Below are positions 13,501 to 16,500 of a DNA stretch of 64,000 bases, one piece after another. The position numbers are program-made. The stretch spans positions 4,881,607-4,945,606 of the forward strand of contig JBNZDD010013730.1 in NCBI GenBank assembly GCA_050575255.1. The letters are read 5' to 3'. Position 1 is the stretch's first letter. Each line of letters starts with the position of its first letter. Origin of the DNA: Harriotta raleighana (Eukaryota).

Positions 13501-16500
13501 GCTTTCATTTTCGAGCAGAATATAAATTGTTGTTTTAAATTGAGTTAAGGGTCAGGCACACTCTTTCCATAGATGTGAAATAAGAATAATTATCTATTGA
13601 GTAGCTTCAACTCGTATAGATATAGGAACTAAGAGAGGAATGCCTCTCACTGGAACCTATTGCAGGAAATAAATCTTTGATCTTAGCTCATTTCATTCTT
13701 TTCTCTCTAACAGTTCAAGCACACATCTCTCCCTCCTACATTTCTTCAATTTTTCAGTTGCTCAATGCCAACATTCAATTGAAGATAACAATCAACCCAA
13801 GGTATGTGTTTATGTAAAAAAAAGAAAAAGTAGTTACCACTTGATTTCTGTTGCAATTTATGCAGTAGTAGTGGAAGGATCTCATTTTTATGCGTGTAGA
13901 GTATTCAGATCTTCTCTATGTTAAATCCTTGTCTCATGTTTTCTGTGTTGTTTTGCAGTGTAGTCATTTACACCAAAGCCTTCATGGGAATTAATGCGCC
14001 TTTTATCCAGGTGGGTGTAGAACTCCAAGCAAGTGTCTATATGGATCATCCAGTAAATATAGCTGTGAGGATAAACCTAAAAGAAAGAAATCTGAAGATT
14101 GAAAGTGAACCAGCTCAAAAGGAGAAGCAGATCATATCATTCAAGTAATTAATACAGTACTATCTTCCTTGAGGTCAAATGTATTCATTATTTTCCTTTT
14201 CTATAATATTTTGCCTTTCTTTTTTAATCCCCTTTAAAGTGTTGTATCGTCATGGCATAATACCATCAAAGACAGCAGCCACTGCTTTCAGATAGGAACC
14301 CAGTTGGTGACTGCATTATTTTGCAATTGGAACTTATTGTAGCAGAGCTGAATCCTTCCTCACTTAAAGCCCATGCCTATACATATATATAATTTCAGTT
14401 TAAATTAACTGAACATTGATACTCCTCTTCGACTGTTGCCTTCAGTCACCTGCCTCCTACCTCTATGCCCTCCATCCATCCTGATCCCAAACAGCAGCTC
14501 AGGTGTGGATCCCTGACTGTCCACTGCTTTGGGATGTTCCCCCAATATGAAAGGCGTTATGCAAATTTAATTTGTTGTTGATTAGGAGAACGAACTTTGG
14601 CGATTTATTCTAACTCATCTTCCTTATAGAGGTAGAGGGTTAGGGAGGGAAACTAAAACCAATTGTAGCATCACTGTGGCTGAGACGGGAAATATCAAGA
14701 GAGACCAAGAATTCAGACAGGAACCTTTCCATTTCACATGGCTCAGTGCTATTCAGTGTACATATCACAGGGAGACTAGATGGACTCTGCTTATAATTGT
14801 TTATGTAGTTTTTTTTAAAAAAAGTATTGCTTTTGCTATGTTAATACATAATATTCATTATTTGTATTGAATATGCAGGTCACAGGTTTATGCTGTTTCA
14901 AGAAATATTGAAAATTTGGCTGCGACAAAAATGACGCCAATTTTACCAGCAAATACAAATACAAGCCAAGCGTCATCAGAGAGGTCATCCAGAACGAGTA
15001 GGCAAACAACTGTAAATACCTCTGATTTTTTCTTTCACATGCAATAGCATGACCTTCATCATATTTAAAATATATGTTGAATATACACTATGTACAACAC
15101 AATAACCTTTTAATGAACTCTACGAAACTCTCAATTGGAGACTTCTGCTTTCATTTTCGAGCAGTCTTGTATGCAAGTTTCCATTCTTATACACCTTCCC
15201 ACTGTTTTCTATTTGCTGTGTACTTGCGTTCCTAGTTTTTTTGAATATACTGTGATTTTAAAAAAAATCTATTATATGCCAATGGAAAAGTGTGACATTT
15301 CTTTGTCGGTCTACAGGCTCAGCGATCCTCAGAAATAATAGCAGAGGAAACTGAACAAAGGAAACAATCACAAGTTGCAAGGACATCTACATATAAGATT
15401 TGTTCCAGAACAACTGAATTGGGGATTGAATTTTGCCTTGATGCATCAATAGAAGATGCTGTTTGTATTCGACCATCCCCGTTGTATACAATGATAGGCC
15501 AGCATGCTGTTACAATATTAGTAAGACCAGGTAAAGAAATTTTAAAAAGCACATTTTGCACTTAAGTATTTAAGCAATTTTGTTGGCGGTGTATGAATCA
15601 TGATAAACCTTTTGTTTGCAGTTCACTCAGAGCCAGACGTTGAAACAATTGTACTAGAAATACAGACAGGATCTGAAGCAGCTTCAAAAGTCATTCGACT
15701 AATGCAATGGGAGAATCAGCAAACTGTAAGAATCCAGCACAAAATGTATATTGACCAAAATTCTAATCTCTTGTGAATCGAACTCTTACATTTAATATCT
15801 TTGCTATATCATTTCCAATGAACTACGAGAGAAGTGTGTTCAATAAAATATGAATGAACAAATGCCTGATCCAACTGTAGAATCCCACTATTATTTTACT
15901 GATCATCCTTTAAAAACATTGCCCCAAATGCAAATGTAATTTTTATTGGTCTTACATTTCTAGGGAAACACATTTTTAATTCATCACGATTCATCTGGAG
16001 AGTTTTATGATTATTGAGCTTTCCAACACAGATTTGTATATTTAGTGCAACTAACAAGAAGAAAAGATTTTGCCCCAATTCATGACTTCTGTCTCCACAA
16101 TATAACCATGGATGACTTTACTTCTGAACTATTTAGCGCTCAAGCACAAGAATGTCAATGAGAAGTTTTCCAGCAGGAAATCCATCCTCTGGTACACAGC
16201 GAAGACAAAGCAGCAGCAGCTCATCAATTCTTCGCTCATCTCGTCAGGTTTGTTTTCTGCTCAAAAGTAAAGTTCCAGATGCTTGAGAACTCAGATGAGC
16301 TCCAGTCCAATGAACCACTTTAAAATCTATTTCTTTGTAACCCTAGGGCGCAGGTTCCCCTATTCTCACCATCCTTCTTCGAGCCGTAAGGATTGACAGG
16401 AAACAGCAAGGCTATCAGTTCACTGGATACGCAGAGGTTTCAGATCGTCAACCCAGAGTTCACTTGCGTGTGGTGGAACTGGCCGAAGACAGCAGGTGGA

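What the first reader, a model, noticed from the sequence alone, without database searches (positions are those of the whole stretch)
15622..16247. Phosvitin-depleted vitellogenin that keeps the full C-terminus (VtgA)
Seen: after the last LvH exon (15622-15725) only 411 bp with no Ser-rich frame precede exon 16137-16247. The large phosvitin exon and the following 48-54 nt exon of VtgB and VtgC are absent, leaving one S6 run. All downstream LvL, beta'/vWD (TCGICG) and Ct exons are intact and in frame. Established: the classic phosvitinless vitellogenin (teleost VtgC/Vtg3 type) also lacks the beta'/Ct region. Inference: an independent phosvitin loss inside the SSX2IP-linked cluster, giving a lipid-carrying, low-phosphate yolk precursor.
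Basis: partly seen in the sequence, partly recalled or inferred. Interest (0 to 1): 0.75.

Follow-up and report, generated by a model that had tools for sequence, protein, structure and literature searches.

The report
Vitellogenin gene with a minimal phosvitin
One of three neighbouring yolk-protein (vitellogenin) genes in this chimaera-like fish genome lacks the two exons that encode most of the serine-rich, phosphate-carrying segment but keeps everything else, which is a further example of a loss already seen in other vitellogenins.

Summary
The window carries three tandem vitellogenin genes on the + strand: A 5633-20207, B about 23136-39130, C about 45449-63866. Their closest database proteins are Callorhinchus milii VTG2 models. 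In gene A the last heavy-chain exon (15622-15725) is followed by a 411-bp intron. That intron has 6-10 stops in each frame, no Ser-rich frame and no usable exon. Next comes exon 16137-16247, which encodes 37 residues with 14 Ser, including an S6 run. Genes B and C have two more exons at this point. B has a 540-nt exon and a 24- or 48-nt exon. C has a 267-nt exon and a 54-nt exon. This gives 73 Ser in B and 47 Ser in C. All exons in this region begin and end in phase 0, so losing them keeps the reading frame. My gene A model has 32 exons and 4641 nt, with no internal stop and GT-AG at every intron. Pfam matches cover Vitellogenin_N, both beta-sheet domains and VWD. Gene A is a VTG2-type gene, so this loss is separate from the VTG1/VtgC loss. 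The architecture itself is not new. C. milii's own VTG1-type protein and five other database vitellogenins lack poly-Ser yet keep VWD. Expression, orthologues and read support could not be checked.

The parts
5633..20207 (+).
   Evidence: Phase-consistent GT-AG chain with no internal stop. tblastn to C. milii models. Pfam matches on single exons.
15622..15725 (+). Last heavy-chain lipovitellin exon of A (104 nt). It ends in phase 0 at donor ACT|gtaaga and is 27-36 nt shorter than in B and C.
15726..16136 (+). 411-bp intron of A that stands where B and C have about 2.2 and 3.0 kb holding two extra exons. It has no Ser-rich frame and no candidate exon. It is unique in the window apart from its last 44-117 bp.
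16137..16247 (+). Residual phosvitin exon of A (111 nt, phase 0/0, 37 aa, 14 Ser, S6 run)
   Evidence: It is 97.1% identical in DNA to exon 59291-59392 of C.
16347..16544 (+). First light-chain exon of A. The Pfam Vit_b-sht_shell profile starts at its residue 5. It lacks 15 nt (ELIRS) that B and C have.
16137..16544 (+). Recent gene-conversion tract shared with C and, less completely, with B. It takes in the 99-bp intron.
   Evidence: A-C identity: exon 99/102, intron 98/99, exon 194/198. The upstream intron is only 68-72% identical.
18142..20207 (+). VWD and C-terminal exons of A: 18142-18331, 18665-18756, 18960-19054, 19151-19301 (contains TCGICG), 19394-19555, 20131-20207
   Evidence: Pfam VWD match on 18144-18329 at E 5.5e-07.
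33584..34123 (+). Large phosvitin exon of B (540 nt, 180 aa, 61 Ser, 55 Arg), with an 18-nt unit repeated 17 times
34644..34667 (+). Mini-exon of B (24 nt, or 48 nt if the weak acceptor at 34620 is used)
35224..35313 (+). B homologue of the 111-nt exon (90 nt, 30 aa, 10 Ser)
57025..57291 (+). Large phosvitin exon of C (267 nt, 89 aa, 31 Ser)
   Evidence: The donor CAG|gtaacc was read by eye against C. milii ...WSDQ.
58277..58330 (+). Mini-exon of C (54 nt, KMGGGLSQLRFSSTERSR)
59291..59392 (+). C homologue of the 111-nt exon (102 nt, 34 aa, 12 Ser)
7337..11065 (+). Two copies of a 1864-bp block (7337-9200 and 9202-11065) with an N at the junction. The block holds five exons of A. It is probably an assembly artefact.
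   Evidence: 1 mismatch in 1864 bp. The five exons sum to 750 nt. The other four single Ns also sit at tandem-repeat junctions.

Best explanation
Gene A is an intact VTG2-type vitellogenin gene that has lost most of its phosvitin-coding part through a genomic deletion.

The deletion removed the large poly-serine exon, the following mini-exon, and probably the last ~30 nt and the original donor of the preceding exon. Splicing is now predicted to run from a donor at 15725|15726 to the retained acceptor at 16136|16137. At that donor A reads GTAAGA, where B reads GAAACA and C reads GGAAGA at the aligned position.

Every exon in this region starts and ends in phase 0, so the loss is frame-neutral. 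The predicted product has a signal peptide, the heavy lipovitellin chain, a 37-residue Ser/Arg-rich linker, the light chain, and the VWD and C-terminal parts.

The protein should still fold and carry lipid like its paralogues. It offers 14 linker serines for phosphorylation, against 47 in C and 73 in B, so it should deliver much less phosphate and bound metal to the yolk.

Shown: the gene structure, the open frame, the domain content, the absence of the two exons, and the VTG2 affinity. Inferred: the deletion as the cause, use of the new junction, expression, phosphorylation and the yolk role.
For: Structure:
- 32 exons, 4641 nt, no internal stop, all introns GT-AG.
- Single-exon Pfam matches above the curated cut-offs: Vitellogenin_N (80.2 and 60.5 bits), Vit_open_b-sht (39.8), Vit_b-sht_shell (59.4 and 32.9) and VWD (30.5). 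That is 6 of the 9 gene-A exons scanned; 3 gave no match.

Missing exons:
- B and C each have a Pv exon and a mini-exon between the homologous flanking exons, all phase 0/0.
- A has only 411 bp there, with no open Ser-rich frame and no similarity to B or C except in its last 44-117 bp.
- No Ser-rich coding stretch lies elsewhere in A.

Donor shift:
- The alignment shows homology to B and C continuing about 27 nt past A's donor. The read-through frame stops after 17 codons.

Constraint:
- dN/dS is 0.36 for A-B over 1460 codons and 0.34 for A-C over 1473 codons.
- At 706 sites where two shark outgroups agree, lineage-specific changes number 37 in A, 28 in B and 29 in C, so A shows no clear acceleration.
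- Inside the very recent A-C conversion tract, the three A-specific exon indels (+3, +6, -15 nt) are all in frame.

Age of the A lineage:
- Exon 1 of C. milii model P0002 matches A at 14 of 14 residues. Its residues 20-76 are 84% identical to A, against 59% to B and to C.

VTG2 affinity:
- A is 65.7% identical to C. milii VTG2 model P0005, 51-55% to shark VTG2-like proteins, and 47.8% to the C. milii VTG1-type protein.
Against: - There is no transcript, protein or read evidence. Two searches of the 5.8-billion-protein set with A-specific exons found nothing. The junction and expression are therefore only predicted.
- The dN/dS values are between paralogues, not specific to A's own lineage.
- The donor (score 1.1) and acceptor (0.1) score low on my rough splice matrix, whose weights are recalled. 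The B and C sites score equally low.
- The same gene holds a 1864-bp exact duplication with an N at its junction. Local assembly quality is therefore not beyond doubt.
- The introns of B and C do not align with each other here either, so the deletion breakpoints and the age of the deletion cannot be fixed.
- The residual exon is nearly identical to C's through recent conversion. Its Ser content may reflect C's history rather than selection on A.
Confidence: 0.7

Rival explanations
1. Assembly artefact. The repetitive poly-Ser exon and its surroundings were collapsed or dropped from gene A during assembly, and the real gene has a normal phosvitin.
For: Pv exons are tandem-repetitive; B has an 18-nt unit repeated 17 times. 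All five single-N positions in the window sit at junctions of two-copy exact repeats, one of them inside gene A, so the assembly has local faults.
Against: There is no N between 9202 and 34413. No remnant of Ser codon repeats is left, and the non-repetitive mini-exon is missing too. The intron is unique sequence. The preceding exon has a changed, in-frame donor, which a collapse would not produce. The faults seen elsewhere are duplications, not deletions.
Confidence: 0.08
2. Gene A is real as assembled but is silent or decaying. It would be a recently disabled or unexpressed copy rather than a working yolk precursor.
For: There is no expression evidence of any kind. Finn and Kristoffersen note that some vitellogenin genes are present but hardly expressed (PMC1770952, passages read). 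If the 5-exon duplication is real, it would add 250 residues inside the N-terminal domain.
Against: All 32 exons are open with canonical splice sites, even though silent sites differ from B and C by 41-44%. A shows no rate acceleration. The recent indels are in frame. The promoter block, with a TATA-like box and an ERE-like pair, aligns with that of C.
Confidence: 0.13
3. The phosvitin part is still encoded, but by an exon that my scan missed. It could be a non-Ser-rich or non-canonical exon, or lie in a different place, or the 15725-16137 join could be only one of several splice forms.
For: Splice sites were scored with a rough matrix built from recalled weights. Only GT-AG introns were considered.
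Against: Each frame of the intron has 6-10 stops, and the only phase-0/0 candidate is 24 nt long with a score of -21.3. No other Ser-rich open stretch lies in a coding frame of gene A. The mini-exon query scores 22 in A, in a frame with stops, against 60 in C.
Confidence: 0.03
4. Gene A never had the large exon. Its short linker would be ancestral, and B and C would have gained theirs.
For: The introns are too diverged to show deletion scars.
Against: Ser-rich segments of 120-236 residues sit between the same anchors in the shark VTG2-like proteins P0012 and P0016, and in most other full-length representatives. The C. milii models have them too. A's exon ends 27-36 nt early, with homology running on into the intron, which points to remodelling in A.
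Confidence: 0.02

Closest known systems
Holocephalan VTG2 paralogues (three tandem genes in C. milii; Ohishi et al. 2023, PMC10015161; sections 6, 7 and passages read)
   Same: There are three tandem genes on one strand. The closest proteins are C. milii VTG2 models, at 66%, 73% and 86% identity for A, B and C. Four-domain architecture. Signs of gene conversion between the paralogues.
   Different: The window is not C. milii; the best exon identities are 85-95%, not 100%. That paper contains no occurrence of the words 'phosvitin' or 'serine', so no phosvitin difference between the paralogues is reported in its main text. I could not see its supplements.
Teleost VtgC / Vtg3 ('phosvitinless')
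   Same: Strong reduction of the poly-Ser segment between the heavy and light lipovitellin chains.
   Different: Teleost VtgC also lacks the VWD (beta' and CT) part (PMC1770952 and PMC6185446, passages read), as do the representatives P0101 and P0107 at 1246-1247 aa. Gene A keeps it. Gene A is VTG2-type, not VTG1/VtgC-type. Gene A keeps a 38%-Ser linker.
Non-teleost Pv-poor vitellogenins that keep VWD: C. milii A0A4W3HZQ6 (P0007), Polypterus (P0102), Pleurodeles (P0010), Trichosurus (P0072), Sarcophilus (P0053), Anolis sagrei (P0074)
   Same: Same overall architecture and size, 1329-1555 aa against 1546 aa for A. All four Pfam domains are present in 6 of 6. The linkers I could measure are 0-50 residues, against 38 in A.
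   Different: Where measured, their linkers are Ser-poor, at 0-18% Ser against 38% in A. P0007 is only 47.8% identical to A, so it is a different paralogue. It is the VTG1 type by elimination, which is an inference. Some of these are automatic gene models that may have skipped a repetitive exon; I could not check that.

Membership tests
Vertebrate vitellogenin (large lipid transfer protein) | N-terminal lipoprotein domain (Pfam Vitellogenin_N) | tested here: met
   Exons 6731-6982 (E 1.6e-22) and 11060-11278 (E 1.5e-16), both above the cut-off.
Vertebrate vitellogenin (large lipid transfer protein) | Open beta-sheet and beta-sheet shell domains (PF09172, PF09175) | tested here: met
   Exon 13960-14142 matches PF09172 at E 4.2e-10. 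Exons 16347-16544 and 16876-17013 match PF09175 at E 5.3e-16 and 7.3e-08.
Vertebrate vitellogenin (large lipid transfer protein) | C-terminal von Willebrand type D domain with the CGxCG motif | tested here: met
   Exon 18144-18329 matches PF00094 at E 5.5e-07. TCGICG is read in exon 19151-19301. The two later exons gave no Pfam match on their own, but they align to C. milii models.
Vertebrate vitellogenin (large lipid transfer protein) | Long poly-serine phosvitin segment between the heavy and light chains | tested here: not met
   Only 37 residues with 14 Ser, against 141 residues with 47 Ser in C and 218 residues with 73 Ser in B. This feature is known to be dispensable in some members.
Vertebrate vitellogenin (large lipid transfer protein) | Open reading frame with signal peptide across all exons | tested here: met
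   32 exons, 4641 nt, no stops, GT-AG throughout. Exon 1 reads MRGIIFLLTLTIV. Signal-peptide function was not tested with a predictor.
Chondrichthyan VTG2 cluster (next to SSX2IP) | Closer to VTG2 than to VTG1 proteins | tested here: met
   65.7% identity to C. milii VTG2 model P0005, against 47.8% to P0007, summed exon by exon. No tree was built.
Chondrichthyan VTG2 cluster (next to SSX2IP) | Synteny with SSX2IP | tested here: inconclusive
   The ORF 772-1014 upstream of gene A gave no Pfam match better than E 0.035, to an unrelated family, and no Atlas hit above 0.78. Its likeness to SSX2IP is recalled only.
Phosvitinless VtgC / VTG1 class | Orthology to VTG1/VtgC | tested here: not met
   A is as far from C. 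milii P0007 (47.8%) as B (47.1%) and C (47.3%) are.
Phosvitinless VtgC / VTG1 class | No Ser-rich segment at all | tested here: not met
   The linker of A is 38% Ser with an S6 run. Linkers of Pv-poor representatives are 0-18% Ser.
Phosvitinless VtgC / VTG1 class | Liver expression under oestrogen and uptake into oocytes | not testable with these tools
   No transcript or proteome data were available. ERE-like sites lie upstream, but their count in the window is not above chance (18 found, 21 expected).

The most novel reading that the evidence does not exclude
Gene A is an expressed, selectively maintained 'mini-phosvitin' vitellogenin. Under this reading, chimaeras carry a graded set of yolk precursors. 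The Pv-less VTG1 type has no Ser-rich stretch by my window test. A has 14 linker serines, C has 47, and B has 73 in an Arg-rich repeat. This would let the mother set lipid supply and phosphate or metal supply to the egg separately. The set is produced by frame-neutral gain and loss of phase-0 exons. Gene conversion, which stops exactly at the edge of the phosvitin module, keeps the rest of the genes alike.
Probability: 0.3. Interest if true: 0.45.

Novelty: new member of a known kind. Interest (0 to 1): 0.3.

Why it matters
Phosvitin is the main store of phosphate and bound metals in vertebrate yolk (general knowledge). Vitellogenins without it are usually discussed as a single old class, VtgC/VTG1.

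A second, separate reduction inside the VTG2 cluster of a cartilaginous fish shows that the segment is a detachable module. It is built from phase-0 exons, so it can be lost without harming the rest of the protein.

The locus also gives a concrete place to test whether paralogues divide lipid delivery from mineral delivery. The effect on current understanding is small. The architecture already exists in databases, and the three holocephalan VTG2 genes are already published.

Tried and rejected
- Orthologue and transcript search. Two A-specific exons were searched against the 5.8-billion-protein set in 'longer' mode and gave no hit: 15326-15529 and 15606-15725. I then sent a 40-residue stretch of the same frame.
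- The four C. milii models are mosaics of the paralogues. They share identical C-terminal two-thirds and differ at the N-terminus. They therefore cannot show the state of the A-type gene in C. milii.
- No collection of vertebrate genomes was on hand, so the orthologous locus stayed unchecked.
- Andersen et al. 2017, whose title reports a phosvitin-less VtgC in chondrichthyans, is not held. I know it only from the reference list of PMC6185446.
- Literature searches found no description of a phosvitin-poor VTG2 in holocephalans in the held library. Supplements were closed and may hold alignments that show it.
- SSX2IP identity of ORF 772-1014: Pfam and the Atlas gave nothing usable.
- An ERE scan gave 18 sites against 21 expected by chance. 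Only the positional agreement between A and C is of note.
- My splice-chain solver needed fixes. One search was an empty call. Frame errors showed up. It never completed a chain for gene B, and it picked some wrong sites in gene C where frames stay open into introns. Only the Pv-region exons of B and C were then checked by hand.
Identity, dN/dS and rate counts were summed exon by exon. No phylogenetic tree was built, so the placement of A rests on summed identities.
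Full report
**What the window holds.** The 64-kb window has a 538-base N run (1224-1761) and five single Ns. Stop-to-stop frames and tblastn with four Callorhinchus milii vitellogenin models show three vitellogenin genes in tandem on the + strand. The models are P0002-P0005, found with the single exon 16347-16544. Gene A runs 5633-20207, B from about 23136 to about 39130, and C from about 45449 to 63866. These labels give position only and are not the teleost VtgA/B/C names. 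Exon identities to the C. milii proteins reach 85-95% but never 100%. The window is therefore from a related holocephalan, not C. milii itself. I did not try to name the species.

**The observation.** Exon 15622-15725 and exon 16137-16247 are exactly as described.
- The first encodes HSEPDVETIVLEIQTGSEAASKVIRLMQWENQQT and ends in phase 0 at ACT|gtaaga.
- The second is 111 nt, phase 0/0, and encodes 37 residues with 14 Ser and one S6 run.
- The 411 bp between them carry 10, 6 and 9 stops in the three frames.
- No 15-residue window there has more than 3 Ser. The matching intervals of B and C reach 12 and 11.
- The only phase-0/0 AG..GT open stretch is 24 nt long and has a hopeless splice score.
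- A scan of the whole + strand finds no other Ser-rich open stretch in a coding frame of gene A.

**The paralogues.** B and C each have two more exons between the homologous flanking exons.
- B has 33584-34123 (180 aa, 61 Ser, 55 Arg) and a mini-exon ending at 34667. The mini-exon is 24 nt from the better acceptor or 48 nt from a weak one.
- C has 57025-57291 (89 aa, 31 Ser) and 58277-58330 (54 nt).
- Counting from the large exon to the homologue of the 111-nt exon, the segment is 218 residues with 73 Ser in B, 141 residues with 47 Ser in C, and 37 residues with 14 Ser in A.
- Every exon here, including the last heavy-chain exon's end and the first light-chain exon, is in phase 0. Removing the two exons therefore keeps the frame.

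**How the junction was remade.**
- In B and C the last heavy-chain exon runs 27-36 nt further than in A, ending at ACGGAG|gtatta and ATGAGG|gttagt. At the aligned position of A's donor, B reads GAAACA and C reads GGAAGA, while A reads GTAAGA.
- Homology continues about 27 nt into A's intron and then stops. The read-through frame ends after 17 codons. The rest of the intron matches nothing in the window until its last 44 bp (to B) or 117 bp (to C).
- The simplest reading is a deletion from near the old donor to the intron upstream of the 111-nt exon, with an upstream GT taking over. This is inference. The introns of B and C do not align with each other here either, so breakpoints and age cannot be fixed.

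**Is gene A otherwise intact?**
- A phase-consistent chain of GT-AG exons gives 32 exons and 4641 nt (1546 codons plus stop), with no internal stop. The chain was found with a rough splice matrix whose weights I recalled, and checked against the C. milii alignments.
- The eleven exons from 16137 onward include NKRTCGICGHNDGE and end in DSHSDCAEA*.
- Scanned one exon at a time, Pfam gives Vitellogenin_N, Vit_open_b-sht, Vit_b-sht_shell and VWD above the curated cut-offs. The shell profile starts at residue 5 of exon 16347-16544. That is 6 of the 9 gene-A exons scanned. Three short exons gave no match.
- So the 37-residue exon is all that lies between the heavy-chain exons and the light chain.

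**Constraint.**
- Summed exon by exon, dN/dS is 0.36 for A-B (1460 codons) and 0.34 for A-C (1473 codons). These values are between paralogues and do not isolate A's lineage.
- A protein-level rate count used 706 sites where the shark proteins P0012 and P0016 agree. It gives 37 changes unique to A, 28 to B and 29 to C. Shared changes number 16 for B+C, 17 for A+B and 6 for A+C. A shows no clear speed-up, and the history is a mosaic.
- The A type is old. C. milii model P0002 begins with an exon identical to A's exon 1 (14 of 14). Its residues 20-76 are 84% identical to A, against 59% to B and to C.

**Gene conversion.**
- From the 111-nt exon through the 99-bp intron and the next exon, A and C are 97.1%, 99.0% and 98.0% identical in DNA. 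The intron just upstream is only 68-72% identical. B joins at 92-97.5% from the intron onward.
- A recent conversion tract therefore starts at the edge of the phosvitin module. Inside it, A differs from C by three exon indels: +CAG, +AGCAGC (which turns S4 into S6), and -15 nt (loss of ELIRS). All three are in frame.
- The residual Ser-rich exon of A may owe its sequence to C.
- Another tract joins B and C at 97.4% over 780 bp.

**Which family?**
- Summed over exons, A is 65.7% identical to C. milii VTG2 model P0005, 54.7% and 51.4% to the shark proteins P0012 and P0016, and 47.8% to C. milii P0007. B and C give 73.1% and 85.5% to P0005, and 47.1% and 47.3% to P0007.
- Ohishi et al. 2023 report one VTG1 and three tandem VTG2 genes in holocephalans, with the VTG locus flanked by SSX2IP and ADGRL4. 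Their main text never mentions phosvitin (PMC10015161; sections 6 and 7 and passages read).
- A is therefore a VTG2-type gene, and its loss is separate from that of the VTG1/VtgC line.
- I could not confirm that ORF 772-1014 is SSX2IP.

**Is the architecture new? No.**
- A profile of exon 3 of A, B and C was run against 1.84 billion representatives and gave 163 hits, of which 150 were listed. Of the 150, 49 are 1000 residues or longer. In 28 of these I could anchor both the end of the heavy chain and the start of the light chain.
- Of those 28, 7 have a linker of 50 residues or less, all with 0-18% Ser. The next shortest linker is 77 residues.
- Six Pv-poor representatives were scanned whole, and all six have the four Pfam domains including VWD. 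They are C. milii A0A4W3HZQ6, Polypterus, Pleurodeles, Trichosurus, Sarcophilus and Anolis sagrei.
- The rule that phosvitinless vitellogenins also lack the VWD part holds for teleost VtgC (PMC1770952, passages read; PMC6185446). It does not hold outside teleosts.
- What sets A apart is smaller. It lies in the VTG2 cluster, and its short linker is still 38% Ser. Some of the database proteins are automatic models that could have skipped a repetitive exon, and I could not test that.

**What stayed open.**
- No vertebrate genome, read set or transcriptome was available. Two searches with A-specific exons found nothing. Expression, use of the 15725-16137 junction, the state of the orthologue in C. 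milii and read support for the assembly are all unchecked.
- Gene A also contains a 1864-bp block present twice, with one mismatch and an N exactly at the junction. The four other single Ns also sit at junctions of two-copy exact repeats, so this is most likely an unmerged assembly overlap.
- The five exons in the block sum to 750 nt, so the frame survives either way. These faults are duplications at marked joins. Nothing of the kind lies between 15600 and 16300.

**Verdict.** It is overstated in its contrast with known forms, and its functional part is untested. I file it as a new member of a known kind, of modest interest.

Noticed in passing
window 7337-9200 and 9202-11065 (N at 9201): A 1864-bp block with five exons of gene A is present twice in tandem, with 1 mismatch and an N exactly at the junction. 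The junction falls 6 nt into the exon that starts at 11060. The five exons sum to 750 nt, so the frame would be kept if the duplication were real.
   Followed up: partly
window 9201, 34414, 52336, 62690, 63399: All five single-N positions lie at the junction of a two-copy exact or near-exact tandem repeat, with periods 1865, 83, 86, 42 and 68. This looks like unmerged overlaps at assembly joins.
   Followed up: partly
window 33798-34107 (inside the gene B exon 33584-34123): An 18-nt unit is repeated 17.2 times and encodes SSDRR(G/R) repeats. This phosvitin exon has 55 Arg in 180 residues, an unusually Arg-rich make-up.
   Followed up: no
window 26448-27227 and 50687-51466; 16137-16544 and 59291-59709: Patchy gene conversion between the paralogues. 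B and C are 97.4% identical over 780 bp, introns included. A and C are 97-99% identical over about 400 bp, including a 99-bp intron. Elsewhere the introns do not align.
   Followed up: partly
window 16347 (start of the first light-chain exon of A): Gene A lacks 15 nt that are present in B and C and encode ELIRS. This is an in-frame deletion just after the residual phosvitin exon, near the expected heavy-chain/light-chain processing region.
   Followed up: no
window 5290-5323 and 45085-45122; 5510-5530, 23015-23035, 45325-45345: Two ERE-like palindromes with 2 mismatches each lie about 320-345 bp upstream of the ATG of A and align with a similar pair upstream of C. A TGAACTTTGAT block is conserved in all three promoters. 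The ERE count in the window is not above chance. The transcription-factor readings are recalled, not tested.
   Followed up: partly
window 9027-9106, 10892-10971, 17461-17598, 27493-27631, 34805-34921, 46263-46401, 56814-56955: Copies of one short interspersed repeat (76-90% identical to each other) sit in introns of all three vitellogenin genes.
   Followed up: no
window 48684-49136 (-) and 40732-40959 (-): Open frames that resemble the C-terminal part of retroelement reverse transcriptases, judged by eye. One lies in an intron of gene C and one between B and C.
   Followed up: no
   Followed up: partly
proteins P0002-P0005 (C. milii UniRef models): The four C. milii models are mosaics. They differ in their first 600 residues, and P0002 starts with A-type exons. 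They then share identical sequence to the end, and some include translated intron. They should not be used as gene-by-gene references.
   Followed up: partly
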